The notes under the pieces are model-generated. The model did no database searches. It had not been told where the DNA came from and saw only the letters and a program-made list of their open reading frames with translations. DNA of 64,000 nt, taken from Phoronis australis (Eukaryota; Animalia; Phoronida). Of this stretch, positions 37,268 to 64,000 are shown piece after piece. Position 1 is the first letter of the stretch. Every line of letters starts with the position of its first letter. The stretch lies in the NCBI GenBank assembly GCA_002633005.1, contig NMRA01000078.1:739565-803564 (forward strand), read 5' to 3'. The position numbers and the translations under genes are program-made.

Positions 37268-37316
37268 CTACGCAGCATAAAAAACCCACAGCAAGCAATG
37301 TCTTCACAGGTCCCAT
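37268..37316 (-). CDS. First coding exon, signal peptide MGPVKTLLAVGFLCCV(G), of the minus-strand secreted/membrane protein gene
   Basis: AAG-ATG-G Kozak context, basic then hydrophobic peptide, consensus AG|GTAAGT donor (phase 1), CpG-enriched surroundings. Confidence 0.7.
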
Positions 37317-37700
37317 CTTCAACACGTTGTACTGACACTGCCCGCGAATTCAAAATGGCTTCGAAGTTAAGCGTTGCTCCTCCAAGAAGGTGCCAACGAC
37401 TTGGCAAGTAGGCTAATTATGCAACTCAAGTCAAAGAAAATTAGAGAAAGACGCGTAATCTCGTTGTATGGTTTGATTTCGTGAGAAGTGAAGCGTAACA
37501 ATGACATCAGCAAACCATTCAGCTTGACCGAGGGCGCGGCGTATTTAGTAGGCTACTGTCCACTTCAGTGCGTCGATGGTGAAAGTGAGACGCCTGCCGA
37601 ACAATCAATTTGGGTGTCGCGTTCCAACACAGATTATGTTGCCAAACGATGATCGCGAAGCAGAAACTATTTCCCACTTAGCCAAAACATCAAGATAAAT
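37317..37700 (-). promoter_or_regulatory. Probable 5' UTR/promoter of the minus-strand gene
   Basis: Local CpG enrichment immediately upstream of the ATG exon; YY1-like CAAAATGGC at ~37351. Inference only. Confidence 0.35.
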
Positions 37701-39163
37701 AAGCGGAAGAAACTCATTTGCGTTTAATGATTCATTAACACAAGAGAAGGCTAAATGTCAAACGCATAACCGAAAGTCCTGGTTACGGAGTGCATGCGCC
37801 AAAAACCAGAAAAGAAAGACAGAAAAACAAGAAGAGAGAAATGCAACTGAAGAGAATATTTGTAAACCACGAGTGCTTTGATTTATCCTTCGAAGTCCCA
37901 GGCCATGACATTGTTTTTGGGGCCCCATTTTGTACTGATGAACGCATTTGAATCGTACTCATTCGTACGTGTAGGCTATTTAAAAGATTAGTCGAGGAAA
38001 TTTGTGAAGCACAGTTTTTGCACAGCATATTAATTCACTGGATTTTAAATTCAAGAGGAGAATGCTAGGGAGTGAAAAACTATATTTCACCAGGGACTAG
38101 TCTCTGACAAGAGATAACGGAATCTTCTGTCGCTCTCCTTTTTCGTTGTTCCCGAAATAGTATATCACTAGATGAAAATTGAAAGCCTGACAGATCACAT
38201 CAATTGTTGTTCATTTCCTTTTTTGAAATTACAGATCCTTTTTATAATTAAAGGCCCAGCCCTTGGAGAGGCCCGTTGATGTATTGTTATCGCGGCAACC
38301 CTTTTGATAGGAGGATCCAGGGATGTCAAATGGGTCCGGACCCCTTTTTTACCCTTGATTTTAGTGATGTCAGATCTACAGTTTTCAAATTGTTGACTTG
38401 GACCTCCCTTTTTTAAAAATCTTTGATCCGACCCCCGCCTCTTTAAAAATCCTGGATCCGCCCCTGTGCTTGGTGATTTTTATTAGTAGCTGTTTAAAAG
38501 GCCGCTTATGGAGGGAGGGCCTAATGATACAATCTAATACCTCAGTTTTCCTGTTTCAGTGAAATCGTACAACCTTTTATGCTGAGGAAGGTCATTTCCG
38601 ACCCCTATATTCCACCGAATGCTCCTCCAGAGTCTGCGAGCATGCCATCGGAAATTCTTCATAATATTCTGTTTTGATAAACTAAACATTCGTTGGTTAC
38701 TGATTTACATGTACGAAAAACGAATGATTCATAGATGAGTTTTTGACGCTAATTTTGTAAGAATTGATGATGCTTCAGTTAACTCAATTGCAGACTGAAG
38801 GTGAGGAAATTTTTCCGTTCCCCAAATAATAAAGTACTCAAGACGTTCTTTGCTATCTAAAATAACTATCAAAGGCATGATAAAATTCGAAGATTCTACA
38901 GGGTTTCTCAAAAATGTACTTGCAATTCAGGACAGTAAGTTGTTTATTGACTTAGGAACAAGATTAGCGGTGTAAACTCACNCATTAGTCCCTAACTTGG
39001 AACTGCCGAAGGCGTCCAGATTCCGCGGGAAGCAGACGACCAACAGAATAACTAGCAAACAAGTAATCATCAGTAATTTCAATGTTTACTTAGATAACGC
39101 TACAAAATGACAATACAACAAAACAATGTGTAACTGCGGTAATATAATCAGACTTTAACTTAC

Positions 39164-39212
39164 CTACGCAGCATAAAAAACCCACAGCAAGCAATGTCTT
39201 CACAGGTCCCAT
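39164..39212 (-). CDS. Duplicate copy of the signal-peptide exon (inside the 1.9-kb duplication)
   Basis: Same sequence as 37268..37316 at offset 1896. Confidence 0.45.
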
Positions 39213-42200
39213 CTTCAACACGTTGTACTGACACTGCCCGCGAATTCAAAATGGCTTCGAAGTTAAGCGTTGCTCCTCCAAGAAGGTGCCAACGACTTGG
39301 CAAGTAGGCTAATTATGCAACTCAAGTCAAAGAAAATTAGAGAAAGACGCGTAATCTCGTTGTATGGTTTGATTTCGTGAGAAGTGAAGCGTAACAATGA
39401 CATCAGCAAACCATTCAGCTTGACCGAGGGCGCGGCGTATTTAGTAGGCTACTGTCCACTTCAGTGCGTCGATGGTGAAAGTGAGACGCCTGCCGAACAA
39501 TCAATTTGGGTGTCGCGTTCCAACACAGATTATGTTGCCAAACGATGATCGCGAAGCAGAAACTATTTCCCACTTAGCCAAAACATCAAGATAAATAAGC
39601 GGAAGAAACTCATTTGCGTTTAATGATTCATTAACACAAGAGAAGGCTAAATGTCAAACGCATAACCGAAAGTCCTGGTTACGGAGGGCATGCGTCAAAA
39701 ACCAGAAAAGAAAGACAGAAAAACAAGAAGAGAGAAATGCAACTGAAGAGAATGTTTGTAAACCACGAGTGCTTTGATTTATCCTTCGATGTCCCAGGCC
39801 ATGACATTGTTTTTGGGGCCCCATTTTGTACTGCTAAACGCATTTGAATCGTACTCATTCGTACGTGTAGGCTATTTAAAAAAATAGTCGAGGAAATTTG
39901 TGAAGCACAGTTTTTGCACAGCATATTAATTCACTGGATTTTAAATTCAAGAGGAGAATGCTAGGGAGTGAAAAACTATATTTCACCAGGGACTAGTCTC
40001 TGACAAGAGATAATGGAGTCTTCTGTCGCTCTCCTTTTTCGTTGTTCCCGAAATAGTATATCACTAGATGAAAATTAAGAACCTGACAGATCACATCAAT
40101 TGTTGTTCATTTCCTTTTTTTGAAATTACAGATCCTTTTTGTAATTAGAGGCCCAGCCCTTGGAGAGGCCCGTTGGTGTATTGTTATCGCGGCAACCCTT
40201 TTGATAGGAGGATCCAGGGATGTCAAAGGGGTCCAGACCCTTTTTTTACCCTTGATTTTAGTGATGTCAGATCTACAGTTTTCAAATTGTTGACTTGAAC
40301 CTCCCTTTTTTAAAAATCTTTGATCCGATCCTTCGCCCCTTTAAAAATCCTGGATCCGCCCCTGTGCTTGGTGATTTTTATTAGTAGCTGCTTAAAAGGC
40401 CGCTTATGGAGGGAGGGCCTAATGATACAATCTAATACCTCAGTTTTCCTGTTTCAGTGAAATCGTACAACCTTTTATACTGAAGAAGGTCATTTCCGAC
40501 CCCTATATTCCACCGAATGCCCCTCCAGAGTCTGCGAGCATGCCATCGGAAATTCTTCATAATATTCTGTTTTGATAAACTAAATATTCGTTGGTTACTG
40601 ATTTACATGTACGAAAAACGAATGATTCATAGATGAGTTTTTGACGCTAATTTTGTAAGAATTGATGATGCTTCAGGTAACTCAATTGCAGACTGAAGGT
40701 GAGGAAATCTTTCCGCTCCCCAAATAATAAAGTACTCAAGACGTTCTTTGCTATCTAAAATAACTATCAAAGGTATGATAAAATTCGAAGATTTCTACAG
40801 GGTTTCTCAAAAATGTACTTGCAATTCAAATGACAGTAAATGCATTGTTTATTGACTTAGGAACAAGATTAGCGGTTTAAACTCACAAACAGGACAACAA
40901 AAGGCAACTAAGTTTTTAAATTAAATTTAATTCATTGCTCATCAACTTCGTACGGTTAATTATCTTTGCACTTCCTTGATGATTTTTTAGTTTCCAGTTA
41001 CGGTACATTGTGCAATAAATTTTTCGCTCTCCAGGCAAAACTGAGTCGTTTGTTTGATTATAGCACGTGATGGCTCAAGTCCGGACTTGAAAACAAGATG
41101 TGAATCGTGTTGTAAGCACGAGCGCAGAAATTAATACACCGGAAGTGAATTTTAACTCTCGGCGTTTATACTGAAGTGCGAGGACAAGTTTTTGGGATAC
41201 CCTGTGTACCATTTGTCCCCAGCCACTAGAAACTGTGCTACCCGTGTTTCAAGAAGGGATTTTGAAACAGCCACAAAAGCAATGTTCTAGAGTCTCCGGA
41301 ATCTCACTGTTTCAAAATTTACACCTTCAAAGGATGACTCTAAAACGATTTTCCCCAAACTGGACCATACCTTAGGGCCAGTGCAGATGGATAAGTGCGA
41401 GCTGAACTGCCAGTCTCGAACGAATCATCTGAGCTGACCAGCGGCTAGTCTATTTCATCCAATTTGTATTTTCAGACCTTTGGTTGGCGTGAGCTAAGAC
41501 TTGAGACAGACAGCCCAAATTCTATTCAGCTAAGCATCTGTTGGCCGGCCTCATTGTCACTCTCCATGAAATTTTGTTGAAACACGGTTGCTCAACTTCT
41601 GCCCCCCGTTAAGTTGGTGGTTATCGGAATCCGTAACTGTTGTTCCCTCCCCAAACACTCCCCCCCCCCCCTTTAATCCCATTGCATTGACAGAAACACG
41701 AAACTGTTGAAAACGTAACTTGATTTTGAAGCACCCTGTAGTGGAAACTGCAGAACTGTAATATTAATAATTATGGGTTAGAGTTTCGGGCATGTTAGGC
41801 CGCTGTTCCGCTGCCAATGTTGAATTTTTAACAGTAGCGCTTTGGGGTTTGAAAATGAACCACGCGTACCCGATGAGCCGGCACCTCAAGTCACAGGCAA
41901 TCAATGCGTACTTGAGTGAGCTATTTTTTGAATTTCAATTTTAGGTTTGGCCAACCCCAGGTCTGAAGCGTTCCCTCGATTTGCCACTGGTTACTTTGTT
42001 CTTGTTCGTAGCGGAAATCAAGTCCCATCACTGCAAGGAACATTTTAGTCGTTTCTGCAGCTAAAATATACTGATGATAGATTCCGTTCCTTGTTGTCGT
42101 TGGTCGGTGGAGACCTATTTTCCTGAATGTTTCAGCCACAGGAATTGACATATTTTCTGAAAAAGACTTAAAAGATGAAGAACCGGAACAAATACTAGAT

Positions 42201-46656: not shown

Positions 46657-49600
46657 GTAAGTTCTTCAGCCAACTATAGTCCTCTGTATTATTACGTGAT
46701 GTTATCGCCCAAATGGTTGGCAGTTGTTGCACTTGTCCTTGTTACTTAGTAAGGTTGTTAAACTGTGAGCTTTGTTATATTGCATCATAACGGATAATTC
46801 TGCTTAACATTGTGCGAGCATGGAAGCGACTTTTAGTTGATTCAATCTCGTGATAGTCTTCTCGATCATTACGGGCTCTCTATTCAAAATTCACGGGGAT
46901 AATAAATGAATTATCATCACAGCTAGGAGCATAAAATCTTTTAAGCCGTGTTTACTTACACAGTCCAACTAGAACAGTTGTATGACTAAGAGGAGGGTTC
47001 ACAAAGAGCTGCTATCACTGACCTTCCAAGCCAGTTTCACTTGTTTATTTATAAACCATTAACTTAAAATGCCAGTTTGCCTAGTTAGACAAATTGCTCA
47101 GTTATGCAAACTAAGCTAATAATTAATTGTTTGCGTAAGGTATGACAAAATACCATTAAAATGCAATATCAATAACCAAAATGTCTGTATTGGGTCATAT
47201 ATTTAATCATTTTTAACAATATGCCGATCTTACCACAGATTCATTTTTGTCCTAGTAAGTCGTTGTTTGTTGCAGGACGAGGTGGAGACGTATTCCATTG
47301 TCACTAGTATTGGCAATGAGTGTACTGTTCAACAAGGTGACTTATCGAAAGGTTGTCGCATCATTGAAGTCAACCGTCACAACATTACGCATGAAAGTGG
47401 TGAAAAAATCCACAGACTGTTGCTATCGACGACCAGCGTCGCCTTCCTATGTGTGAGGAAAGCAACTGGACTCCTACCGTTGTCAAGGATTGAAGATAGT
47501 CACGTAACCAATGTCGCCACTAACCACTTGCCACTTACTAAAACTGGAAGTAGTAGTAGCTCAAATGCCAGTGGCGATCATCTGTCAAATATTACAGGTG
47601 TGATCAAGGACACTAATAATCATGTACAGGTTACCAAAAAGACGAGCAACAGCAGTTCCAATGTCAGCATTGGTCGTCAGTCAGGTATGGAAATTAGGCC
47701 CCTCGTCAAAAATGGCCAAGAACCCCTTCCAACAAAAAGAAGTAGTAGTGGCTCAAACGCTAGTGCTGATCATTTGTGGAGTACTGAAAGTGCCGTCAGT
47801 GTAAACCTGGAGAGTGTATCAGCCCAGGAGAGTGGTGGTCAGCTTGGTTCATCCAGGATCAGACAGGTGGCAGCAGCGGACAATAATTTAATAGGTTACG
47901 TCCTCAAGAGCCCCCACCGCGTCAGATGGCATGAAAGAATGCTAAAACTGGAAATAAAAAATGTTCCCGGCGCCAAACTGCTGGAGAAGAAATGCAAGAG
48001 AAGCAAAGCTGACATCTACTTATTGGTCACTTTGGTTGAGTCTAGCAGTCCTGCTTATGGTGTTTTGAAAGCCGGAGACTGGATTAGATCAGTGAACGGT
48101 GTTCCAATTCACGATGAAGAAACGGTAAATAATGCAATTGCTTAAAGTTTATCGCGGACGGTATTACTTGTAAAGTTGGTTCCTTCTGATCGGTGTGTTA
48201 AGAACATCGCTCTGAGCCCAACAGTACTATAAATTGCAAATGTAATGAACTAGTAGGTTAAATGGCTTGCATTTGTCTATGTCACCATTAGAATCACCTT
48301 TTAAGTGAAACAGCTGCAAAAACAATGGTGTTCTATTGAAGCCCCTATTCAATTCAGCCTTTTGTTATTTGTGCTGGATTGTCCTAATGATGTATGGTAA
48401 CATGGCACGAAAAGACAATTTCACATATTGTTTGATGGGCCTATATTCGATTGTTTTGCTAAGGCTTTGCTAGGACTATAGTTAGCCCAATGCATCTAAA
48501 ATAATTAAATTCTATTCAAGATAGGCTTTAAAGCATCAGAGAAACTGACTGATTTAGACCATTTACTGCTATGAAATTGGTCTCTGCTTAATCATGAGAT
48601 CGTGTACGCGTGAACTTGGAATTAAATATTCATTAAAGTAATCAGATGCTAGTTTTTCTTCAATGTAAAGAAACTTTCAAATTATTGGCGCCACGATCAT
48701 CTGTTTTTTTCCTTTACTGGAACTTGTGTCTCACAATCGAGGAATATGTGAATGGTTAATCAATAATTGTTTGGTGAATAAGATTGTCAAACAGAACAAT
48801 AAATGTCGATAAAAATTACTTTATTTTGTTAAAATGCGATTTGCTTTAGTGCAGTACAAATTTTTTCAACGTGAACAAGATTGTTTGAGTGACCTTGCCA
48901 TATTTCTTAGGGTATTCAAGTTTACGCATACATTATCTTGAGATTAATAAGCAAAATTCAAAGTCAAAGCACGATAGATTAAAGACGCTATGTTTCATTA
49001 ACACTGTGACCGTAATTCTTTAAATTTGTAGCAATTGCTGCTTAGTGACTTCCTGGAGAATTGTGTGTACAAGTATAATCAGGAAACAAAATAATTGGAA
49101 ATAAATTGCGGTTTTAAAAAAACTGTGCAACTAATGCTCTTAAAAACGTGTAAACATATAAAAAGCAAGTAATTCCAAATATTACGCAATTATTATTTGA
49201 TAGTTAAAATCAGTAAATAATAAAAACTGTGCATTGTTTCTTTTGGGTAACAACAGTGCTCATTTACGTAAAAATAGTCCCACAAAACGAGACTTTGCGA
49301 GATTGCAATGGTAACTGGTTCTCCGATGGAGGACCGCGGTTGTTCATAAATTAGTACATCATTTGCACATTCACAATTTAATGAGACTATGTGTCTTTAA
49401 CTTGGATCTTTATCAAATTGGTTTAAGAATTCCCTTGCCTCAATACCGACTTCTTTCTGCCACTTAAATTGAGAGAGTGGTTGAGGTTGACTCGAAGCAT
49501 CCAACCTAATTGGGAAGGGTAGGACAACGCTATTAAAACTTGCAGTGTTTTGACACCATTTGTACTTGATGTTGGTTGAGCCGTGTACATAGAGAGAAAA

Positions 49601-52600
49601 ACATGGATATTCTTAATAAATAGCCGTGAACGCAAGCAGCTCATGTGACGCCATATTGTGTGGAGGTTCACTGTAAACGAACCAATATGGCTGCAGGTGA
49701 ATAGGGACCTTGGTGTATTAAATGCAAAATACTGACAAACAGAAATACGCTAAGCATTATTAGCGGGATACTTAAATTTAAGACTTAAGATTTTCAGATG
49801 AATGTTCTGATATCAACGTAAAAATTCCGAATATATAAGCACTTTGGTACATATTTCATCAAAATCGACCCACTGATTTCAAACTTAGTTCCCTATATCA
49901 TACCAAGTTAAACAGTACATAGCACTCAGCTCCAAACTACAAAATGGCCGCCCGGCTATACGTATACAAAATCATGTGATGGCCAATCTCTGCCTCTATA
50001 TCTATGGTTTGAGTAATCAGTGAGGAAATGAAATTCACTCTTTATAGTGATATGGAGGGTTTGAGACCTGTTTTGTCTGGTTGAATAATCTGGTTTATAA
50101 TTTACATTTCAGGTACTAGGTGAATAAAGTGTCCCAAGAAGCTTTATTGTTGACATCCAGTCACCATGTTGTTTACATACTTTTTATTTTTTCAAGAATG
50201 TCTTCATGACAAAACAAAACATTGACTGACTTTGTTGGAATCGTTTTAACCGAACTAAGTTATTATAAACAGTAAACGATTGTTTTCAGGCACGAAAATT
50301 TCAAGGCATTATAGAGAATTGCCAGGAACCCACAATAACAATGCACGTCCAACGACCGTTTGATATCCTCGAAGCTTCTTCATCCTCGAGTGTCACTCAG
50401 GTGCCCTCTGGTGTCACCCAGGTGACTTCCATTTCTGATATCCGCCACGTGCCTTCAACTTGTGTTGAGAGCATACCTTCGACTTCTGCTAATAACTTGT
50501 TTGAAGTACCGAAAACAGTGTCTACTGATCCTCAACTGCAAGCTGCTTTTAACTCAATTGTATCAAAGGCATTAAACAAACCAACAAATTACTTTCCGCA
50601 GAGCAAGGTTATTGTGATTGGTTCGAACAGTGAGATGGTGGCCAAGTACGTGCTGGGTTGTGATTCGCAGCCCACGTCACATTTGCTGCGCAACGTCCAT
50701 AAACGCGTGGTTCGTGTGAATTGCAAAGATAGGGAAGTATTAATCACACCTCCTGACGGATATACTTCAACAGTGGATGAATGTCTTGCCCACCAGGTGA
50801 TTAAAGAGGTCTTTGAGAGCACGACACTTGATGAATGTGCAAGAGTTCAGATAAGTAAAAGCCTGATGCACAACAACATTCAAGACGTGCGAGGCATCGA
50901 CGGCCAGTTACTAGCGCGGCTCTTGGCTGATGGTGGTGTGGTCAACAGTGCACTCTTTGACCTGGAAATCACCTGTTTGAAGGACACGCCAGTAGCTGTA
51001 GCTTGCAGGCCCATCCTCTTCTCACACCTCGCACAGTTTGTGTTGACATTCAATGTGGATGAACTTCTTGAAAACGGAGAATACGTGATGAGTCGTCTGT
51101 TCACGAACTTAACAGAAATTCGTTTTTTCACAGGAAAGGACACCCCAGTGTTGCTTGTTTGTTGTGGAGCCATGCGTAGTGATGTCGATGTCTGCGGAAT
51201 ATTGGACTCGTACAGTCTACGCTCTCTCTTCTCCTCTCACTTAGTGTACAACAGGTCATCCAAGTGCCCTGTATTCCATCTGTGCATGTCACATGGCAGG
51301 TCATGTGAGAGGTCTGGTGACACTGATAATTTAAAGCAGGCCATCATAAACTATGCTGTACGTTCTAGCATGGCCCCGCAGAAGTACCCATTGGCCAGTT
51401 TTGCCTTCTTAAAGCAGATTCAGAAGATGCGTTCCCAAAAACACTTCATCATAGCTGCTAGCACTGCTCGCTGTGTGCTGGAGGATATTTCCGGACCCAT
51501 CAATTCAGATTATCAACACCAGGTGCTGTCCTGTCTTCACTCAATGGGCGAGATTGTTTACAAAGGTAGGGAATTGTTTCATCAGACATGCCCTGCTATG
51601 GTGATAACCTGGCTCATAGCCTACATTCCTCTAAACAGCCATCCCAACTTAAAAAAAAAAAAAATTCCCAAACTTTGTCTTTGAATTTTAACTTAATTAC
51701 TGTATATTGGCCCCTATGTATAGTCCAAATAACATTTTATTTCTGATCAGTCTAAATGTTTTCCAATTGTTTTGCATTAGGTGTCCATTATACACACCAG
51801 GAAGTGGGTGCATTATATTTTTGTATTGTTTTATCCTTTAAGATGCATAGTTGTGAATATGCGAATGAAGTCATGACTAATACAAACAACCGCTGTCCTC
51901 CAGTATGTCGGAAACCATCCGAGAACCAGTTACCGTAATTACAGTCTCGTTAAATCTTGTTTTGCAAGATTATTTTTTGTAAATTAGTATGGTAAGATTG
52001 CTTTGTTACCCTAATGAAATGAGGTACAGTTTTTATCTGTGTCTATTTCAATGTTTGTTTCTTTTCCCGACTCTTCATGTACTCACAGTTCTTCAGGAAG
52101 TCACTAGGTGGCGCTTGCTACACATTTAAATATTCACGTTTTTTATGAGACGACGTCTTTAAGTTGAAAGGTAGTTCTCATCTACTTTCAAATTGAAGCT
52201 TGCAAACATGTCCTGCAGAAGATACTATGCTCAACTTTTCACCCCCATACGGTCAGCCATGTTGTATGTTGCTGCATGTTTGTATAGATGCAGCACCCCG
52301 TACATTCAGAAGGTCCTGAAGATCTGAATATACGGATAATGTATCGCGATTCTGTGAAAGCACAGGTTCCTACTTCTAGAGGACATGCTCCAGCCTGAAG
52401 GTGGTGTATTTATGAACTGATTAAACGCATTGTATCGTTGTAGATCGGTCAGACTCGTGCATCTTTATAAACACGGACGTACTGTTCGCATGTGCAAAGC
52501 AATTGTTCATGGTACCAGCCAAAGTGGATCAAACACGGAGGTGGCGTAGCGATTGGGAGAAACTGGAACAATGTGGCCTGGCTTCGAAAGACTTCCTCTT

Positions 52601-55600
52601 GGCCCCCAGAGTCACTGATGGTGATGAGGTCAAAGGTCAACACGTGCTGGCTTGCTTCCAGTGGTATGGACTGGTATTTACGTTCGGCGATGAGTTCCTC
52701 CTGCCTCATTTCATGCCGAAGTTGTGTAATCGTGAGCTGAGCCGTACGACATCACTAGACTCTCTAATTAGGACGGGTCGTGAACTCTACATCCAGTTCA
52801 CAGAGCCGCCACATTTAACTGTGATCTACGAACTGTACTCGCGTTGTTCCAAGGAGTGTGCCAGCAGAGGGGGCAAAAGCGATGTTGTGGATAGGTACAG
52901 TGCAGTCTTCAGGCAAGAGGTACTGGAATATTTGATGCGATATACCCCTATGTCCAGCATGATAAAGGTGATAGTCAGGTGAGCAATTAGTTAAAACTTC
53001 ATATTAAATTATATTTAGCAGCTAACAAATTATTTATTTTGCAACTGAAGCTTATAACATCTTTTCGTTACCGTGACAGCTTTTGAATTCCGTTACCAAC
53101 AAAAACATCAAAAACATGTATTTACACAGACCGTTTTCGATTGCATAATGATTACAAATAAATTGGGATGTACAATCGTACTGCCTTAAATGACAAGTGA
53201 ACTGTAGGTGGCGCTGAACATTGTCCATCATGTACTCAGGCATTTGCCATTTCAGGTCTGGGGATGGCGTCCTGAATCCATTTCTCTTGCAACTGCAGGA
53301 TATTGTCAGAGATGTCCTGAAGCACTCATCATACAGCTGTGTTATTGGCCCAGCTTGTCCAGCCAGTGAATGTGTTGAACTGGGCAGCCTGCATGTCCTT
53401 GACCTTGCAGCTCAACCGCCAGTACATTGTGGGATTGAACAGCTGGACACTCATCCTGATGTCTGCAGCTGGTTACCTTCAGAGGTATGTCCGTGTGCAG
53501 CATGCTGTGTGGCCATTTGCAGTAATGCAGGGTCATTTTGCCCCCATAAATTGAGCCTGTTCATGACAATCCTCTCGTTGGTGTCAAGGCAAAAGTTACT
53601 TATTATTGTGTGTATTAAAGATGCATGATCTCATTACATTGTGAATTTGCAAATGAAGTACTAATTTATAAATGACTCTGGGTCCTCCAGTGTGCTGGAA
53701 ATCATCTGAGAGCCTGTTACCATTACAATCTTGCAAAAGTCTCGTTTTGTGCGACTATTTTTATGTAACTGAGCATGGTAATATTTCATTGTTACCCAAA
53801 TGAAACAAGGCATAGTTTTTGCTTATTTCACTATCAAAGACCGCTTGCGTAATATTTAGAATTACTAGTAAGGGTTCACACTTGTTTTTAATTGTATCTG
53901 ATGCGTTTTCTTTAAAGCTGCAAATTGTTTCAACCTTTTCCTGATTATACTTGTACACACAGTTCTCCTGGAAGTCACTAGGTGGCTCTTGCTACAAATT
54001 TAAATATTCATGGTTTAATGAGACATAGCATCTTGAATGTGTATGCAATAGTTCTGTGCCTACTACTACTTCTGGTGCTGCAGAAAACTGGCTACTTGTT
54101 CACATCAGTGGATAAAGATTGCTGATTGTGAATTCATAATTCAGACCACCAACTGTGCACAACACCTTACCAATCAGGATAATGGTTTTCCGGATCGATA
54201 CCAAGAGTGCCTGTCCGTGCCACCCTGCAACCCAACCCACAAATCCAGTATATGCACCTAGAAATGATAGCACACAGCCAATAGGGCCATCCAGGATTAC
54301 GTGGCAGTAGAACTCTCTTTTGTCCCAGAGATAAGAAAGTGCGTGATCTAGTTTTGGAAATCAGGCACATTTTCGTGTCTCATTGATGTCGAGAAGGGGA
54401 AGAATTTCAGGTCACGCATCCGTCATTTTTGTTTGTCCAGTTTATCAAACTTTCTCACTTTGGAGATGCAACCCACAACACAGCAGTAATACTTTGTTGG
54501 CATTGGAAGGACAAATAGAGTAATGCAACCGAGAAAAACTTGTAAAGAATCAGACAATAACAAATAACATGTGAAATCACACAGTAAAATCAAATTACCC
54601 ATCTGAGACAATGTCTGAGGGCCATGGTAACTGTCCAACTGGGTAGTTCATCTATCTTAGACTATGTCTAAGGGCCATGGTAACTATCCAACTGGGTAGT
54701 ACATCTATCTGAGACAATATCTGAGGGGCCATGCTTACTATCCAACTGAGTTGCACATTTGTCATAAGTTGTTTCATGTGAAAGCCTCTTGAAAAAGTCG
54801 TTTGCAGCAAGGTCAATTGGTTTGGCCTTCCAGTGATATTTTATTATAGTGACAAGATTGTGAAAATTGCTTTATCGAGACACTTTATCACCATGGTGAT
54901 TCTTTTACTGTTTATCTTTAATCAGGTGCGTAACCCTGTCGTTAGGGTGTTTGCCTCTGCACATGCCCGGAAACCTGTTTCGATGGAAACCCGACTGAAT
55001 AATATCCCAGAAGGCCTTGCTCAGGTCATCACCAATTTGTATAATATTCCCATGACGTTGGGTAGAGACTGGACTCATTTAGCTGGTAAGACAACTCATC
55101 AAAGTTAACTTTGTTATTCAGTTTGATTCCAATTTACAATGTTCTCTGCTAGATATATTTCTGACTGCCAGGTGTGAATGTATACTCATCCTCCAGGGCT
55201 CATATTACAGACCTCAACATTTTGTCTGGTTGAACCACCTCAGACGTCTTTTTATTTTAATTAAAGCTAAAGGTTTTGGCCTCCAAACGAGTACGCAGTA
55301 TATCTTTGTTTTAAGTCACTTTGAATTAGTGTTCCAAATTTTTGCATTGTTATAAAACTTTGAGCATACTATCGTGGAAGAATTAATAGACTGGCAGCCG
55401 CTTTCATTAATAGAAAGAGTAGTTAGCAACTGCCCCTAAGGAACCCCAAAGAATGCCAAAGGAACCCCCCCCCCCCCCCCCCCAAATGAGCCTTGTGGCT
55501 TGTGAAGGGTTTACCTACTAATGCTTTGAACTAGATTGAATTGTTTAATTGATTCACAACCCATGCCAAATGAGGTCGTATGGAGCTGGCAGGGCATTGT

Positions 55601-56904
55601 TTAACTTCCAACATCCATGGGACAGGCATAAGCACGTCGCATGGTTATCACCTTTGGGGCGCTACCATTGTTTTCTTTTTTGGATATTAATTATTTAACA
55701 ATACATGGATATCTTACCTTGGGCGTACATCAGCTGTTTACCGATAAATGCTTTTCATTATAATCTTTATTATACCAAGTGAACTACGGATGCACCAATC
55801 CATGGATCTCTATGCAACTAGCTTGCGACCTAGTTTCCCATTGGTAATTGCCTGAAGTTGATAGTTGTCATTTTGCCTATTGGGGATTATGGTAATATGT
55901 CTGACATCAGTTTTGAAGGAGAGTAGTAATTGCTAATCATGCCATCTGTTCATTGCCCACAATTTCTCAAAATTTTTCTTAGGTGGTGGCCGTGGTATTG
56001 TAGTTGAACATGGAAACTATTAATTTGGTAATACATGTCTTTCGTGGAAAAAATGAGGAGTAAAATAAAACATTTGTCGGTCACATTGTGTCCTAATTTG
56101 GTGAGATTTTACTGGCGTGTATTTCAAATTCACTTGGTGGCTCCAAGGGTTCTACCAGTAAACATGCAGGCAGTGCTTGATACTGGCAAAAATGTCCGCT
56201 CGAAAATACGAGAGATGGCATATTTGCCACTCGTATTTCCGGATTTGGGCTCATAAAAAGCGGCGTCAGAAAAAAACGCCGAACATCTGCTCAGCACCTG
56301 TATTAGTGATAGAAGTAGGATCAATTTACTGTTCTATTTTACTTCTTCTACTCATATTTTTTAGCGTATACTTACTTATGTATTGATGACATGGGTTCTG
56401 TATCATGTGAAGGGTACCATATCATGTGTAGGGTCCATGCTGACAGAATTTCTAATTGCTCCGCATCTACTCATTAGCACCACATGTTGCTGTTTGTGCA
56501 CTTGAGAAATGTACGTACTCAGTGAAGTACCCATAGGCAGACTTAGGAGTTGCACAAATGACCCTGCCAGCTTCTGGGCATCATTAATAACAAACGACAC
56601 CTAGTTGCTGTTTTTAAGGCTGACATGAAGGTTTTTCCTTTCTGGAATAATGGTCCTTCTTCTCCTCATGACATTGTAAGTTCCTGCATTCTCACTTGTT
56701 TCATTCTCTGCAGCAAAACTTGATCTGACCATCACCGCAATAGCCAGGCTGAAGATGGTTGATGACCCCTGCAGGGCCATCATTCTCAACTGGGCTACAA
56801 CTGGCGCTACCGTAAAGAATCTTTTGGATGTAAGCGAGTCCTTAGAACGTCTGGATGTGTGTGAGGATGTGATGGAGTGGATAAACTCTCAACAGCAACA
56901 ATGA
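46507..56904 (+). CDS. 7-exon gene, 1129 aa: PDZ-PDZ-degenerate Roc-COR-Death domain (Roco-like) protein
   Basis: Exons of 150+849+1276+535+229+160+191 = 3390 nt, all GT-AG, phases 0,0,1,2,0,1 match. Domain motifs run continuously across junctions (PDZ1 exons 1/2, PDZ2 exons 2/3, COR exons 3/4/5, Death domain exons 6/7). Confidence 0.85.
47276..48124 (+). CDS. Exon 2: rest of PDZ1, Ser-rich linker, most of PDZ2
   Basis: TTGCAG acceptor; GDLSKGCRIIEVNRHNI and SSPAYGVLKAGDWIRSVNGVPI PDZ signatures; donor ACG|GTAAAT. Confidence 0.85.
50290..51565 (+). CDS. Exon 3: end of PDZ2, degenerate Roc domain, start of COR
   Basis: TTTTCAG acceptor; ARKFQGIIENCQEPTITMHVQR completes PDZ2; KVIVIG, FSHLAQFVLTFNV, PVLLV; COR-like LSCLHSMGEIVY; donor AAG|GTAGG. 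Confidence 0.85.
52444..52978 (+). CDS. Exon 4: COR domain
   Basis: GTTGTAG acceptor (phase 1); CIFINTDVLF..WEKLEQCGL..FQWYGLV..FLLPHFMP; donor CAG|GTGAG. Confidence 0.85.
53256..53484 (+). CDS. Exon 5: C-terminal COR region with Cys/His cluster
   Basis: TTTCAG acceptor (phase 2); donor GAG|GTATGT. Confidence 0.8.
54598..54750. repeat. ~52-bp intronic tandem repeat x3
   Basis: ATCTGAGACAATGTCTGAGGGCCATGGTAACTGTCCAACTGGGTAG variants. Confidence 0.8.
54926..55085 (+). CDS. Exon 6: start of Death domain (..ITNLYNIPMTLGRDWTHLA)
   Basis: TTTAATCAG acceptor, CTG|GTAAG donor; G-x-D-W-x-x-L-A helix-2 motif. Confidence 0.85.
56714..56904 (+). CDS. Exon 7 (terminal): rest of Death domain, AKLDLTITAIARLKMVDDPCRAIILNWATTGATVKNLLDVSESLERLDVCEDVMEWINSQQQQ*
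   Basis: CTCTGCAG acceptor (phase 1); P..IL.W..GATV..L...LER.DV Death-domain pattern; TGA at 56902..56904. Absent from the supplied ORF track. Confidence 0.85.
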
Positions 56905-59244
56905 CTTGGCTGTGTCAGTATCAGTGTTAAGAGTGCTGCATAGCCTCAGTCTGCCATTTGGAACTCAATATTGTCACGCAGGGAAATCTTATTGTGAACA
57001 GGTGTCCTGGGTTTTGAGAACCAGTTTGATGACAGTTATTCAGTAGAGAAGACTGGTTCTCATATTGCAGGACCCAGTAGGTGACTATTTCGGCAAAAAC
57101 TGTAGGAATGTTTCCCCTCGTTCGCAGCATAGTATGTGTCATGTAGCCAACGTCTGCTTGCGCTTGACGAAATTCGGAATAATTCAAAACCACTGTACCT
57201 CAGAAATGAAGAAATGATTATGTTGGCAATATTTCAGTTAGTGGAGACATTGTATTGCTAACAATGGAAAAGATGTATTGCAGCTCTGCACTATATTGTA
57301 TTGTAGTGAACCTCTGCTTTTGCTTGAATGTGTTGTTTATTGAACAAAATGGTGGACGCTATGTTGATGCAGTGCAAACACAATGTCCTAACAAGAGACA
57401 GTAAAACTGTGAGGCACATCCTGTTCTGGACTTTCTACCTTAAAGAGTTCTAATTCAATTGTAGAAACAGTCTTTTAGAGGTTGGTTTGTACCTATCACT
57501 AACGGGCTCATTCTGAGCGCCACCTACAGCGTAATTCACAAATATTTTGTGAACCCTTTGACAAATTGATGGTGAACTATACTGTAGGAAGTGACGTCCA
57601 GATCATAGAGTCTGTCAAGATGAGAGTCATTATGTCATCGACTCTTGATGTATATTACACCTGCTGCTGAATCTGACAGGAAAACTTATATCTCATCTTT
57701 GGCTACGAGGGATTCTTTGTCTCATAACAGCAACAAACCTTTTCTGTTATTTGTCTGACAACAGCTCATTCCGTTTTGGCTCACCTAACAATCTATTGGC
57801 CAAAACCACTGCTATCCGTTGTGGGCGCAGTAATACATGAATGGCCCATAGGGACGAATACAGAATTTTTTGGTTAGGGGGGAGCAGGGCAGAGTATTAG
57901 CCAGATTTTGCCCATCAGACATTTGCACCCCCGAATTGCCCAGTGGAGGGGGAGGGGGCATGGCCCCCTTGGCCCTCCCCCCCCCCCCCTCAAATCTGCC
58001 ACTGGCCTAACACGTAGTGAGGTTGAGGGAATCTGAGGCTCATTTCATGAAATGTAACTGAACACTAAAATTTGGTTTTGTGCTCCGCACAACTGTTCCT
58101 GAAAAACAATTAAAAAATCTTGCTTGTGCTAAGTGTCTGAGAGTATCATTATTTTGACTTAACTCATGTAAAAACACTTCAGTTAAATTTTACAACATAA
58201 AAAAAAATATTATTATTGTTTGTGGAACGATACATCTGGAAAATCTTCCTCTTTTTGTCATAGGTCATTCTAATCTGTGGGCTTTATTCATTGATTGTGA
58301 TTCATTGATTGTGAATAGGGAGTTAAAAACCAAATTTCTGACTTAAGACTCAAATTACTTCTTATGAAGCGGATCTTTGGAGTGAGCTTTTCGACAGTGC
58401 TGTATATGATATCTGATATTTTTGTAAGCTAGACGTATTTATTTTTATGCAAACTATTTATTGTTTAAATGTCAGTGCTAATTTCCATTCACCTGTACAC
58501 TGTAAAACAAACCAGATTAATTTTCAACAATTTTCTATCTATTTTTATAGTCCAAAGCAATAAATAAATGGGTTAAATTTTTGCCGTCACAACCGTACGC
58601 TTCCAACAAGTCTTGAACTCCCTCTCTGACTCCTTAAATCCTTTATTTTGTACACTCCCGAAAAATTGTAATAATTGTGAACAGTCCCTTACTCGACCCA
58701 CGGTGGAGCTAGTCCATTTCTCGTTCAGTTGACGATTGTAACTTTTTTGAAACCATGTTGTTTACAGGACATCACGTGTACTCCCATCTTACTAAGTATC
58801 TTCTTTTTCGACCACGAATCCCATTGTTCTTCCTCGTCCCCCTCCGATATTATATCTAATATTGGCATGGTACTTATTGAGAGCTTTTATTTAAAGATGT
58901 TCATGACGTTGGTCAGTTTGATAGCAGTTAAAATTGTGTTATTCAAATATTCATGTTGGCGTTTTTTGCCTTCAAAATTGCCAAAGGTGGGTGGACTGTT
59001 GCGGTTTAAACATATCAGTTGTTGTTACAACGAAATAGGATTTGTTTTTGTTCAACCAAATAAAGGTAACTTAAGAAAGTGGCGAGATACTGAATTTTTC
59101 AGGTTTAGATGTGCAGTATAATCCTCATTTCTTAATATTATGCAACTGTCTGCTTATGTACTAGCTATGTGAATTATTCAATTATTTTGCATGATCTCTA
59201 ACACATTAGTGGTATTATTACTTTAATAAAAACAACAACCATTT

Positions 59245-59294
59245 TTAACCGTGACATGTTTCGTGGGAGTCATCCCACATCTTCAGACATTTAT
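59245..59294 (-). ncRNA. Minimal type I hammerhead ribozyme (Penelope-like-element type)
   Basis: Minus strand: AUAAAUGU-CUGAAGA-U-GUGGGA-UGAC-UCCCAC-GAAA-CAUG-UC-ACGGUUAA. Intact core, perfect 6-bp stem II, palindromic ACAUGU minimal stem III, GUC cleavage triplet. Confidence 0.8.
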
Positions 59295-59490
59295 TCTCAA
59301 ATAACCAGCTCAGAGCTATTTACAAAGAAAATTCAGTACGAGTTGGTACAAAAACATGAATGACAACAGAAGTGACAAGGATTTACATTTTACTTATGAA
59401 TGTTAAAGATTTAACTGGTGACTGAGCCATTCCTGCTTTTGTTGTGACTCTGTTCTGATTTTCGTGTTGTATACAGCCGGATGTTTGAGA

Positions 59491-59540
59491 TTAAACGTCT
59501 GAAGATTCGGGATGGTTCTGATGAAACATGTCACAATTAA
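59491..59540 (+). ncRNA. Minimal hammerhead ribozyme, diverged inverted partner
   Basis: UUAAACGU-CUGAAGA-U-UCGGGA-UGG-UUCUGA-U-GAAA-CAUG-UC-ACAAUUAA; stem II has G-U pairs and stem I is weaker. Confidence 0.65.
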
Positions 59541-60215
59541 ATAAGGTTGTGCCTTTATATCACTTGACACATTGTATAAAGTAGTCTCTTGTTCAGAACC
59601 ATTTGTGCAAATAATTGGCTTTTCGTGTCATTTTGTGGGACTGCAGGTTATTCAAGTGTTAGTGAGAATTACTTGACAACGTTACTTATAGCGAAATCAT
59701 TCTATTGTATAGCAACTGTGATATCTGGAAATGTTAACGTTGTGTTGAAGATATTGTATAAGTACATTTTGCTACTAAATCAAACATTTTATATTAATGG
59801 TTTTGGTCAGAGCTAGTGTTTTTAGACACAGCCACATACGTTGTTTGACTAGAGTTTTAGAAACTTTTTTTAAAAAATGCCAGTGCTGTTTGTAGAGTTT
59901 TTAGACATAGCTAGTCATTGTAGCTTGTCTCAAGTCTTAGGAAGTGTTAAATAATATCAGTGCTGAATCTTATTTCGTTTGTATGGATAGTAAGCCCGCA
60001 GCCATGGTTACGTATTAGTGACACCATGTATTGTAATTGACCTATCGCCAGGACTTTGAGTGACTGCTTAAGTAACCAATTAGAACGCAGCATTCNCATT
60101 TCTTAATATTATGCAACTGTCTGCTTATGTACTAGCTATGTGAATTATTCAATTATTTTGCATGATCTCTAACACATTAGTGGTATTATTACTTTAATAA
60201 AAACAACAACCATTT

Positions 60216-60265
60216 TTAACCGTGACATGTTTCGTGGGAGTCATCCCACATCTTCAGACATTTAT
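60216..60265 (-). ncRNA. Duplicate of the minus-strand hammerhead
   Basis: Same sequence as 59245..59294. Confidence 0.7.
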
Positions 60266-60460
60266 TCTCAAATAACCAGCTCAGAGCTATTTACAAAGAA
60301 AATTCAGCACCAGTTGGTACAAAAACATGAATGACACAGAAGTGACAAGGATTTACATTTTACTTATGAATGTTAAAGATTTAACTGGTGACTGAGCCAT
60401 TCCTGCTTTTGTTGTAACTCTGTTCTGATTTTCGTGTTGTATACAGCCGGATGTTTGAGA

Positions 60461-60510
60461 TTAAACGTCTGAAGATTCGGGATGGTTCTGATGAAACATT
60501 TCACAATTAA
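60461..60510 (+). ncRNA. Duplicate of the plus-strand hammerhead, stem III disrupted (GAAACATTTC)
   Basis: G>T change relative to GAAACATGTC at 59523..59532. Confidence 0.45.
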
Positions 60511-62503
60511 AAAAGGTTGTGCATTTATATCACTTGACAAATTGTATAAAGTAGTCTCTTGTTCAGAAACATGTGTGCAAATAATCGGCTTTTCGTGTCA
60601 TTTTGTGGAACTGCAGGTTATTCAAGTGTTAGTGAGAATTACTTGACAGCGTTACTTATAGCGAAATCATTCTATTGTATTGCAACTGTGATATCTGGAA
60701 ATGTTAACGTTGTGTTGAAGATATTGTATAAGTATATTTTGCTACTAAATCAAAGATTTTTATATTAATGGTTTTGGTCAGAGCTAGTGTTTTTAGACAC
60801 AGCCACATACGTTGTTTGACTAGAGTTTTAGAAACTTTTTTAAAAAATGCCAGCGCTGTTGGTAGAGTTTTTAGACAGCTAGTCATTGTAGCCTGTCTCA
60901 AGTCTTAGGAACTGTTAAATAATATCAGTGCTGAATCTTATTTCGTTTGTATGGATAGTAAGCCCACAGCCATGGTTACGTATTAGTGACACCATGTATT
61001 GTAATTGACCTGTCGCCAGGACTTTGAGTGACTGCTTAAGTAACCAATTAGAACGCAGCATTCTTGACACACCTTCGTTTCCAAGCCACCATTTTACCCG
61101 ACAAACAACACGTTGCCACTTATTGTTTGTTTGTCGACATTTCGCAAGTGGGTGAGCCTTGCGATAGGTCAATTGGGGATCCCTGTAAACTGGGTGGGCT
61201 CATTTATCAATGGGCGTTTGTGGATTAGCCCTTGGGCTTCTATACGAAATGTAGCAATGTAAGGGGCAGTATCTTATGAAGATCAAGAACATATTGTTAA
61301 CCATGCTTCCCCTGGGGGGGGCCAGATTAGTGCATGCGTGTCAGTGTACAGCTACCAACCGACAGAGTATAATTTTGAATAACTGTTGGCATTCAGTGCA
61401 TTGCTGGAAGACCTTGAACATGAAAAGGTCAATTTTGATGAGATTTATCGTAATTGAATAGCTTCCATTTATTCTCAGTCGTATCTTCTGGTACAGTATG
61501 GAATTTGGTTATCAATAGAATTTATGATGCAACCAACTACTGTGGTCATTTGCCGAGTAGGGCTGCAAGGTACATATTTATATTCGCTGTGTGTAAATGT
61601 TCAACACCACCTATAGTTTACGTGTAACTGGAGATTTTGAAACGATGGAACTTTCCAGCTGTCACGGTGCTGTAACATTACGATCGTATGGTGGGATGTT
61701 CAAATGATTCTCGTACAAGTACATATAAGAAAGAACTTAATATACGTCTTCATTTGCTCTGCCCATCTTTATTTCCATAATTTTAATTGGGTTGTCGCTT
61801 TTGTACTAAATTTGAATGTTTCGTGTTTCTGTGGTAATTTTTTACACGTGTGTAATGAATGCATCGGAATGGTGCGAAGTGCCTTCAGAGTATTTCACTG
61901 GGAATGCACACAAATCCAACCAACCACTCCCAAGTTTATGCCCAGCTGTGGGCCGTGTAGTCGTTTGGTCTAGTCGATTGAAATGCTGCGTTTACGAGAC
62001 ATTGTGATGTCCGAAAAATGTAATTTATTATTTTTTGTAATTTGACACCAGGTGCCTGACTGTGTGATCCAGGCACACTAGTTTACCAGGTGGCGAGACT
62101 GTCTCATCCACGATTTGGCTCTGAACTCACATAGAACTGCCACGACATTTAGCAATTCTGTTAGAAATAGTTTGGCAGTGACAATTGACAAGGGAAGCAA
62201 AAGAATTTGTAAAAAGGAGAAGTAACTTCTTGGTATTGCTGTTGATGTCTGATAATACAATGCGGCATACTTTGTTCATGCAAAAGTACCATGTGGAGAT
62301 AATCTGATAATCTAAGTAAAAATACAGGCTAGTGTTGGCTGTCAGAGTAAATGTTTATTTTACATAACTTAGAGAGGGAAGTCATGATCAAGCCATTTGG
62401 TGCCACTTTTGTGAATGGTGCATTTGTGGGAGGGTTTACACCTACTACAAACCTGCTTTCTGTCAGTTATAAGGTTTCATTTAGGTCACTAAAGGTCACT
62501 AAA

Positions 62504-62736
62504 GGTCATTGTGGCCTAGTGGGATAAGTGTCGGCTCCTTTACTCAAGGTGGTGGGTTTGAGTCCCACTGGGGCACACTGTTACACCCTTGACTCTGGTC
62601 TGCAGCTCCTCAGCTCAGTTTTAACTGTATGTTAATAAAGCATAAAAATGGTTACATCAGTGCAATGGGCCACCTGAGCGGCCTGCGAACGTCTGGTACA
62701 ACGTGTACCAGACCGCCTGCAATTATGTATTTTTTA
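62504..62736 (+). mobile_element. tRNA-derived SINE-like element
   Basis: A box TGGCCTAGTGG (62512), B box GGTTTGAGTCC (62555), 3' perfect hairpin GTCTGGTACA-ACG-TGTACCAGAC (62691..62713), T-rich tail. Confidence 0.55.
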
Positions 62737-62919
62737 AATGGTCTCAACTAAATGTTTCTTACTGTAATCGAATGAGAGGTGGTTTCTGGGCTTGGAAAAA
62801 TGGACAGTTTGTTACTGCTTGGGACCAGGCTACGTAAATATTTTGTTACCATTCATTCTTCAAACGTAACATTAAAAATAGTTAACAACAATGTTGAGGC
62901 AATGAGGTAAATAACTGGC

Positions 62920-63238
62920 TTGCCAGGGTGGGTCATGTTGGGCATTGTCGGGGTGGGTCATTTTGGGCGTTGTCGGGGTGGGTCATTTTGGACGTTGTCG
63001 GGGTGGGTCATTTTGGGCGTTGTCGGGGTGGGTCATTTTGGGGGTTGTCGGGGTGGCTCATNNNNNNNNNNNNNNNNNNNNNNNNNNNNNNNNNNNNNNN
63101 NNNNNNNNNNNNNNNNNNNNNNNNNNNNNNNNNNNNNNNNNNNNNNNNNNNNNNNNNNNNNNNNNNNNNNNNNNNNNNNNNNGTTGTCAGGGTGGGTCAT
63201 GTTGGGCGTTGTCAGGGTGGGTCATTTTAGGCGTTGGA
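62920..63238. repeat. 25-bp G-rich minisatellite (GTTGTCGGGGTGGGTCATTTTGGGC)n spanning an assembly gap (63062..63182)
   Basis: Directly visible on both sides of the N run. Confidence 0.95.
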
Positions 63239-64000
63239 CATGATCTCGAGCAGTACCTTTCAAGCCTGGACACTATTTCTCATCTGAGTGAGGAACAATG
63301 ATGTAGACCCGCTCTATTGTGGTAACAGGTCATGGCGAGGGCTTCTTTGGTGGCATCATGGGTTCATGGCAGCTTTGAGGAAGTTTCATTTGAAACTAGC
63401 AACACTGGATACTCATTCACATACCAACATGTTTATTGGCATACTGTTCTAATATATATCGGAGATTGTTAGGCTCTGGAGATTCTAAAAATTACAAACA
63501 ATGCCGAGTACAATACAAAAGGCTGGCCTGGACTGTCTGAGATCACTCGATAATAATATAGAGAACACGAACAGACAAAAACCTGAGAAAATACATTGTA
63601 AATAAAGGGGACTACTATCAGTAAAATCGAACAAAAATCACTGCTTCAATTGCCCACTTTTCACAAGCTTCGAAGAGAATGTCTGCAATTTTTCGAATAG
63701 CTGTCTGATAGCATCTCCACTAGAGAACTTGACAGTGGTGTACCTTAAACATTGGAAATGCATCGAGCAAGTAGTGCTGCATGAAAATGCAGCAAAATTA
63801 TGCAGGGAAAATTGTCATAATTTTCAAAAGATTTTACGCATTAAAAAAACGTTTTTCAACTTATTCTGTACTGGCATTTCGCCATGAATTCGATGAAGCC
63901 AGACAAATTTTGCGGATTTATTTTTTGGGAACTATGTATCTAGTACATATTTGACACTTCAGCAGAGCTGGAGTAAATTAGGAATAAGTACTGATTGTAA

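What the first reader, a model, noticed from the sequence alone, without database searches (positions are those of the whole stretch)
59213..59560. Back-to-back inverted pair of minimal hammerhead ribozymes on opposite strands
Seen: two ~90-bp imperfect inverted repeats about 165 bp apart, each with CUGAAGA-stem II-GAAAC-AUG-UC, pointing away from each other. Stem II differs between copies (GUGGGA/UCCCAC vs UCGGGA/UUCUGA) yet both pair, a covariation-like signal. Known: minimal hammerheads with a palindromic, almost absent stem III are a hallmark of Penelope-like element pseudo-LTRs, are thought to cleave as dimers, and these pLTRs often occur inverted. Inference: a ~350-bp ORF-less Penelope-derived unit that could self-cleave in both polarities, 2.3 kb downstream of the Roco-like stop codon. 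The + ribozyme could cut read-through or long-3'UTR transcripts.
Basis: partly seen in the sequence, partly recalled or inferred. Interest (0 to 1): 0.75.

Follow-up and report, generated by a model that had tools for sequence, protein, structure and literature searches.

The report
Head-to-head Penelope stub in 3' UTR
The two mirror-image self-cutting RNA motifs are real, but they are likely the decayed ends of a Penelope-type jumping gene in an already described layout; only one strand is transcribed, it is predicted to zip both motifs into a hairpin, and the RNA reads show no cut.

Summary
In detail: two type I hammerhead cores point away from each other (predicted cuts at 59253 on -, 59532 on +), far beyond chance. 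The layout is published for Penelope-like element ends (opposite-strand dual hammerheads; inverted 5'-truncated copy with a one-sided tail), and this scan found it before in other genomes. It recurs in this genome and in 16 of 16 non-redundant homologous pairs in unrelated metagenome loci. No RT or GIY-YIG was found, so Penelope origin is inferred. The functional reading fails. Stranded RNA-seq shows only the + strand, as part of a long 3' UTR, with no depth step, end pile-up or circle. The + motif is the weaker one (U.U at 10.1-11.1; its fold costs about 48 kcal/mol against the arm-arm hairpin), and 27 of 28 spanning reads carry an allele that breaks the dimer palindrome, so the intact allele is barely tested. 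The 970-bp 'tandem copy' next to it is the second haplotype, an assembly artefact. One loose end: the arms carry different stem II versions and may come from two subfamilies. Ordinary; low interest.

The parts
59191..59375 (-). Left arm: 3'-terminal (pseudo-LTR-like) piece of the repeat family, read on the - strand; inner boundary approximate
   Evidence: Paralogous contigs cover 59191-59332; arm-arm homology to 59362 and weakly beyond
59191..59225 (-). One-sided extension of about 35 nt with no counterpart in the right arm; candidate PLE 'tail'
   Evidence: Paralogue ends at 59191 (3 contigs) versus 59216-59222; arm homology stops at 59226; 30-40 bp tail described in PMC8557442 and PMC3846280
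59247..59292 (-). Type I hammerhead, intact geometry: CUGAAGA, extra U after A9, 6-bp stem II with G10.1-C11.1, palindromic stem III, 3-bp stem I; predicted cut after 59253
   Evidence: 39.7 bits, E 9e-9 with a model built from other loci
59376..59409 (.). Central head-to-head junction region, approximate
   Evidence: Between the stretches covered by paralogues; weak self-complementarity to the centre
59410..59558 (+). Right arm: second, inverted terminal piece
   Evidence: Paralogues cover 59410-59463 and about 59500-59540; arm alignment
59455..59476 (+). Candidate 3' splice site (branch-like CTGAT, pyrimidine run, ACAG) 22 nt upstream of the core; a similar motif lies in the left arm; no spliced reads seen
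   Evidence: Sequence; paralogue loose ends at 59316/59317; no joint here in RNA. Inference only
59493..59538 (+). Type I hammerhead, weakened: stem II in shifted register, U.U at 10.1-11.1, 2-bp proximal stem I, core predicted to be locked in hairpins; predicted cut after 59532
   Evidence: 26.3 bits with stem II dropped by the model
59530..59530 (+). Polymorphic G/T site in the stem III palindrome; the T allele removes self-complementarity
   Evidence: Copy 2 has T; RNA reads 7/8, 4/4, 16/16 T; duplex -4.6 versus +2.8 kcal/mol
56713..56904 (+). Last coding exon of the host gene (Death domain)
   Evidence: Pfam PF00531 E 6e-5; RNA depth 7-15
56905..60095 (+). Long 3' UTR containing the element
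   Evidence: Continuous one-strand RNA depth in all bins of three runs, zero in the upstream intron bin
60097..61063 (.). Second haplotype of 59126-60095 placed in tandem by the assembly (artefact); holds the allelic copies of both hammerheads
   Evidence: 97% identical, joined at a single N; flat contig depth across 59121 and a two-allele bubble; RNA carries copy-2 letters

Best explanation
This is likely an old, ORF-less insertion of a Penelope-like retroelement: two 5'-truncated end pieces joined head-to-head, each with a type I hammerhead motif, now lying in the transcribed 3' UTR of a host gene, where it is predicted to fold into a long hairpin and likely does not cut. Shown: both motifs; the inverted arms; paralogues including other back-to-back pairs; + strand-only transcription without a visible cut; the allelic nature of the neighbouring duplicate. 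Inferred: Penelope origin (from architecture and motif type, no ORF found); formation by the truncation-plus-inversion route described for these elements; the one-sided tail; inactivity (from folding energies, allele data and low published activity of such motifs). In the active parent the motif would work as a dimer of same-strand tandem copies through the ACAUGU palindrome; here each strand has only one copy.
For: Motif geometry equals that published for PLE hammerheads: unpaired base between 9 and 10.1, G10.1-C11.1, 6-bp helix II, small palindromic helix III; dual motifs 100-700 bp apart on opposite strands already reported (PMC4209133). Inverted 5'-truncated copy and 30-40 bp one-sided tail described (PMC8557442; PMC3846280). 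In 61 metagenome loci with the same core, all 20 homologous opposite-strand neighbour pairs (16 non-redundant) are divergent, spacing 25-501 nt; the 5 convergent neighbours are non-homologous. In this organism 19-25 contigs per DNA run were laid, 14-20 only partly; one contig holds two arms in opposite orientation about 90 nt apart: variable spacing fits variable truncation. RNA: depth downstream/upstream 1.02, 1.17, 1.19; no end pile-up, no joint in the element. Hammerhead-ready fold of the + motif costs 48 kcal/mol with both arms and 10.6-13.5 alone; core bases pair with the upstream arm with mean probability 0.90. A common allele breaks the palindrome.
Against: No RT or GIY-YIG domain in window 54001-63002 (six frames), in 33 of 35 long ORFs or 150 of 164 short ORFs of the metagenome loci; no genome is held, so PLE linkage is unproven. 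None of 16 arm-arm differences falls in the 17 core bases (p=0.01, though the pair was picked for intact cores). The + stem II still makes 6 pairs after 7 differences (p=0.035 under random change), and contigs of other loci were laid on the + motif, so pure decay of one template does not explain the arms. A U.U at the base of stem II is tolerated in an active axolotl hammerhead (PMC7229834 section 15). No convincing target-site duplication (only a 7-mer). RNA depth is low (2-17) and almost all from the T allele.
Confidence: 0.8

Rival explanations
1. A self-propagating, non-autonomous two-armed element whose ribozymes of both polarities are kept by selection, with viroid-like ambisense RNA processing.
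For: Cores identical while stem II differs yet pairs; at least one other clear two-armed locus and joints that suggest more; both strands fold into long rods.
Against: Spacing differs between two-armed loci here (about 90 nt between laid pieces; a joint skipping 112 nt) and runs 25-501 nt in other loci, so there is no fixed unit; few copies; no abundant RNA, no circle joint, antisense depth at most 0.73; cuts pointing outward on opposite strands cannot release a unit-length RNA from one strand.
Confidence: 0.08
2. The + hammerhead has been co-opted as a 3' UTR cutter that lowers the host mRNA, with a functional G allele and a null T allele.
For: It lies in the expressed 3' UTR on the right strand; core intact in the G allele; U.U at the stem II base can be tolerated; the RNA samples hardly test the G allele.
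Against: No same-strand partner for dimer folding; fold disfavoured by 10-48 kcal/mol; published in vitro activity of such motifs is nil as monomers and low as dimers; one contig of run X8 (RNA status is a guess) bridges the site with G at 59530.
Confidence: 0.07
3. The 970-bp tandem duplicate is a real dimeric non-LTR retrozyme that supplies same-strand dimer partners.
For: Two copies 970 bp apart at 97% identity in the window.
Against: Single N at the junction; same pattern at N 38982 (2 of 5 single-N junctions); one contig crosses 59121 at flat depth and the copies form a half-depth bubble; RNA carries the copy-2 letters.
Confidence: 0.02
4. Terminal inverted repeats of a DNA-type MITE that resemble a hammerhead by chance.
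For: Inverted arms, no ORF, several copies.
Against: Chance near zero; the motif family shows strong stem covariation (0 of 500 shuffles); paralogue changes cluster in loop II and stem ends; arms unequal and homology reaches the centre.
Confidence: 0.02

Closest known systems
Minimal type I hammerheads of metazoan Penelope-like element pseudo-LTRs, variant with small palindromic helix III (Cervera and De la Pena 2014, PMC4209133)
   Same: Core, unpaired base between 9 and 10.1, 6-bp helix II, short helix I, palindromic helix III, ORF-less dispersed copies, pairs 100-700 bp apart on opposite strands.
   Different: The + copy lacks G10.1-C11.1; no link to a PLE ORF shown here; cleavage not assayed.
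Inverted-pLTR insertions with one-sided tail of endonuclease-bearing PLEs (Arkhipova et al. 2013, PMC3846280; Craig et al. 2021, PMC8557442)
   Same: Head-to-head arms, homology reaching the centre, about 35 nt extension on one arm only.
   Different: No ORF between or beside the arms, no clear target-site duplication, arms about 20-25% apart and possibly of two stem II variants.
Non-LTR retrozymes (Cervera and De la Pena 2020, PMC7229834; Li et al. 2026, 10.64898/2026.07.22.740005)
   Same: Non-coding, type I hammerhead with weak palindromic helix III, thought to derive from PLE pLTRs.
   Different: Those are head-to-tail tandems giving abundant circular RNA; here one copy per strand, the apparent tandem is an artefact, and no circle was seen.
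3' UTR hammerhead of rodent Clec2 genes (recalled; seen here only as a term count in a search listing)
   Same: Hammerhead motif in a transcribed 3' UTR.
   Different: Recalled as a monomer-competent, conserved, active ribozyme; here dimer-type, polymorphic for a disrupting allele, and no cut seen.

Membership tests
PLE-type minimal type I hammerhead | Catalytic core CUGANGA / GAAA / NUH | tested here: met
   Both arms
PLE-type minimal type I hammerhead | Unpaired base between 9 and 10.1 and G10.1-C11.1 closing pair | tested here: inconclusive
   Met by the - arm; the + arm has U.U (0 of 37 distinct relatives have U.U, 25 have G-C)
PLE-type minimal type I hammerhead | Palindromic, very short helix III | tested here: met
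   ACAUGU in both arms of copy 1; broken in the + arm of the second allele
PLE-type minimal type I hammerhead | Family of genomic copies with changes outside the core | tested here: met
   up to 8 contigs differ at loop II position 59269; core changes are in single contigs
PLE-type minimal type I hammerhead | Self-cleavage as dimer | not testable with these tools
   No assay; RNA-seq shows no cut but mostly samples the T allele
Penelope-like element insertion | Link to an RT plus GIY-YIG ORF in some family member | tested here: inconclusive
   None in window 54-63 kb or the loci scanned; genome not held
Penelope-like element insertion | Head-to-head inverted 5'-truncated copy | tested here: met
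   16 of 16 non-redundant homologous pairs divergent
Penelope-like element insertion | 30-40 bp tail on one arm | tested here: inconclusive
   About 35 nt extension 59191-59225 from paralogue ends; outer boundary uncertain by about 10 nt
Penelope-like element insertion | Target-site duplication (optional in the literature) | tested here: not met
   Longest flank repeat is a 7-mer lying inside the tail, about chance level; no empty site available
Non-LTR retrozyme | Head-to-tail tandem with a hammerhead in each unit | tested here: not met
   Apparent tandem is allelic
Non-LTR retrozyme | Abundant linear and circular monomer RNA | tested here: inconclusive
   No back joint and only UTR-level depth, but library selection is unspecified and small circles may be lost
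Viroid-like ambisense ribozyme element | RNA of both polarities, each self-cleaved | tested here: not met
   Antisense depth 0 to 0.73 in the element's bins versus 1.4-17 sense

The most novel reading that the evidence does not exclude
The two arms descend from two different active hammerhead subfamilies (distinct stem II versions, identical cores), joined head-to-head. Such hetero-armed insertions would mean that inverted Penelope ends are not always made by self-primed fold-back of one template, but also by switching between two element RNAs or by insertion at an older copy, and they could propagate as two-armed units.
Probability: 0.25. Interest if true: 0.45.

Novelty: new member of a known kind. 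Interest (0 to 1): 0.15.

Why it matters
As it stands it is one more example of a described retroelement footprint. Two modest uses: it is a natural G/T allele pair in an expressed 3' UTR, which allows a clean in vivo test of whether PLE-type hammerheads ever cut host mRNA; and if the arms prove to come from two subfamilies it would bear on how Penelope elements make head-to-head insertions, which PMC3846280 leaves open. It also warns that single-N haplotype overlaps can mimic retrozyme dimers.

Tried and rejected
Rfam: no hammerhead hit at E up to 10 in 57000-62000 or at gathering score in the whole window. No genome held; the metagenome records could not be searched as genomes. No RT or GIY-YIG by Pfam (2 duplicate long ORFs and 14 short ORFs were left out). 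Tandem retrozyme reading rejected. ADAR-scar idea (lead from e1-9106339): the 16 arm-arm differences are mixed (5 A/G or T/C in one direction, 5 in the other, 6 transversions), no skew; editing in RNA reads could not be judged because 139 difference rows were not shown. Target-site duplication not found. No run holding the stretch is on record as RNA; this blank is no evidence. No look-alike stretch among earlier findings by sequence. Lunse et al. on dimer cleavage is not held and was seen only as cited in PMC6765202. Literature search for hetero-armed or template-switch pLTR pairs (6 listed) showed nothing specific in the listing; this is one search, not proof of absence. Supplementary alignments of PMC4209133 were not looked at and may hold closer relatives. 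Compensatory stem I differences between arms in four metagenome pairs were set aside, as the search pattern selects one of the two forms.

Full report
Observation. The two motifs are at the stated places. On +: CUGAAGA at 59499, a 17-nt stem II region, GAAA, the palindrome ACAUGU, and C17 at 59532. On -: CUGAAGA at 59286 and C17 at 59253. Simulated windows gave 0.05 relaxed hits per 64 kb and no strict hit in 40. The inverted repeat is 76 nt at 79% without gaps, 164 nt apart. With gaps it covers about 135 nt per arm and continues weakly to the centre (0 of 1000 shuffles reach the score). Rfam detects neither motif.

An independent family model. A pattern scan of metagenome contigs for the core alone, without asking for stem II, gave 61 loci; several hold animal-type protein domains, and their source was not determined. 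Of 37 distinct stem II regions, 20 form at least 4 pairs from the base after the extra U (shuffles: mean 0.5, maximum 4 in 2000); 10.1-11.1 is G-C in 25, G-U in 4, A-U in 1 and never U.U. Thirteen of 42 motifs with the same stem II length as the window's aligned without gaps; 9 of 10 stem pairs show changes on both sides, covariation 0.61 against 0.24 (0 of 500 shuffles) and at most 0.15 for slid controls. A model from them (the core is shared by construction) scores the - motif 39.7 bits, the + motif 26.3 with stem II dropped, and the second + allele 19.0.

Orientation is a rule. Among neighbours within 700 nt in those loci, all 20 homologous opposite-strand pairs (16 after removing 4 duplicates) are divergent, spacing 25-501 nt, arm identity 0.78-0.97; the 5 convergent neighbours are unrelated motifs (scores 20-32 against 89-384). 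In 12 of 16 the arms meet within 40 nt. This is the published PLE layout. PMC4209133 (parts 1-2 of 4 read) reports dual minimal hammerheads 100-700 bp apart on opposite strands, the unpaired base after position 9, the conserved G10.1-C11.1, palindromic helix III, no activity as monomers and low activity as dimers. PMC8557442 (passages), PMC3846280 (passages) and PMC8969392 (passages) describe the inverted 5'-truncated copy, head-to-head junctions and a 30-40 bp tail on one side. Earlier agents of this scan reached the same reading on other genomes; these are unchecked notes, not support.

Copies in this organism. Four DNA contig sets of one sample were laid on 59050-59750 at 80% likeness. 19-25 contigs were laid per run, 14-20 only in part. 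Paralogues cover 59191-59332, 59410-59463 and about 59500-59540. One contig, seen in all four runs, holds two arms in opposite orientation about 90 nt apart; other joints (a 112-nt skip; three opposite-strand joints at the same depth in X2) suggest further two-armed loci with other spacings. Differences cluster in loop II (59269 in 6-8 contigs), at 11.1 (C to U, still pairing) and in stem I; core changes occur in single contigs. Paralogue ends at 59191 versus 59216-59222 define a one-sided extension of about 35 nt. Summed depth is not a copy number, but the contig counts point to a small family at this likeness. No RT or GIY-YIG domain was found near the element or in the scanned ORFs of the metagenome loci (33 of 35 long, 150 of 164 short), so Penelope origin rests on motif type and architecture.

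The neighbouring duplicate is an artefact. 59121-60095 recurs at 60092-61063 (97%), joined at a single N; the same occurs at N 38982, 2 of 5 single-N junctions. One contig crosses 59121 at flat depth, and 59500-59669 splits into two 170-nt contigs of about half depth with 0 and 8 differences. Thirteen of the 21 substitutions between the copies appear among the rows shown for the RNA runs with the copy-2 letter. The locus is single and the sample heterozygous, so no same-strand dimer partner exists in cis.

Transcription. Three stranded RNA runs (18-19% of each read) give continuous one-strand depth from the last exon (Death domain, stop at 56904) to 60095, with zero in the upstream intron bin: the element lies in a long 3' UTR. 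Opposite-strand depth in its bins is 0-0.73. The intact - motif is therefore not expressed in its active sense in these samples. Depth downstream over upstream of the element is 1.02, 1.17 and 1.19; no place where many molecules begin or end and no joint in the element were listed. At 59530, 27 of 28 reads carry T, which destroys the palindrome (duplex -4.6 to +2.8 kcal/mol). These data therefore say little about the G allele. One 176-nt contig of run X8 (RNA status a guess) bridges the site with G.

Folding. In + RNA the complement of the - arm is made first and pairs with the + core (mean probability 0.90, also for prefixes ending just past the cut). Forcing the hammerhead fold costs 48 kcal/mol; even alone it costs 10.6-13.5, because a 10-bp local hairpin holds the 5' part of the core. 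The isolated - arm forms stem II with probability above 0.8 and costs about 6.

Against my reading. None of the 16 arm-arm differences lies in the 17 core bases (p=0.01), though the pair was noticed for that reason. Seven lie in the stem II region, yet the + version keeps 6 pairs (p=0.035 under random change), and some paralogues were laid on the + motif in preference to the - motif. A U.U at the base of stem II is tolerated in the axolotl HHR_Amex2 (PMC7229834 section 15), so the + motif is weakened, not proven dead. I could not retrieve paralogue sequences to settle this.

Comparison. It works like, and is most likely, a PLE head-to-head stub. It is not a non-LTR retrozyme, which is defined by head-to-tail units (PMC7229834 passages; 10.64898/2026.07.22.740005 part 1 of 5 and a term search), and it fails the both-polarity test of viroid-like elements. 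The host gene has PDZ and Death domains; 'Roco-like' was not confirmed.

Verdict. Real feature, known kind, no sign of a host function. Interest 0.15; best explanation 0.8; the hetero-armed reading has probability about 0.25 and would deserve about 0.45.

Noticed in passing
window 37087-40886: A second haplotype-overlap duplicate: 1.9 kb at 97.6% identity joined at the single N at 38982. Gene models across it would contain false duplicated sequence.
   Followed up: partly
window 47207-56904: Host gene with a PDZ domain exon (47207-48145), a 471-aa exon with no Pfam, PDB or homologue hit (50269-51684) and a C-terminal Death domain; architecture unexplained, Roco identity unconfirmed.
   Followed up: partly
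window 57004-57073: A 22-nt inverted repeat matching a very abundant, expressed genomic repeat on both strands (RNA depth 400-700 against about 5 around it); likely the end of a short high-copy element.
   Followed up: no
window 57820-58419 and 60035 onward: Further high-copy repeats inside the same 3' UTR; the one starting at 60035 has an inverted 18-nt match at 61157-61174.
   Followed up: no
window 62920-63250: A 25-bp G-rich minisatellite running into an assembly gap.
   Followed up: no
L003:625-971: One inverted plus four tandem 87-bp units, each with a hammerhead core: an inverted end joined to a very short retrozyme-like tandem.
   Followed up: no
L023:2067-2159 and L059:1282-1327: Divergent hammerhead pairs only 25 and 45 nt apart, so truncation reaches to within about 12-22 nt of the core.
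   Followed up: no
window 59455-59476 (+) and 59316-59336 (-): A 3' splice-site-like motif just upstream of the hammerhead in both arms and in paralogue loose ends; PMC4209133 reports an intron end next to helix I in Drosophila virilis Penelope. No spliced reads seen.
   Followed up: partly
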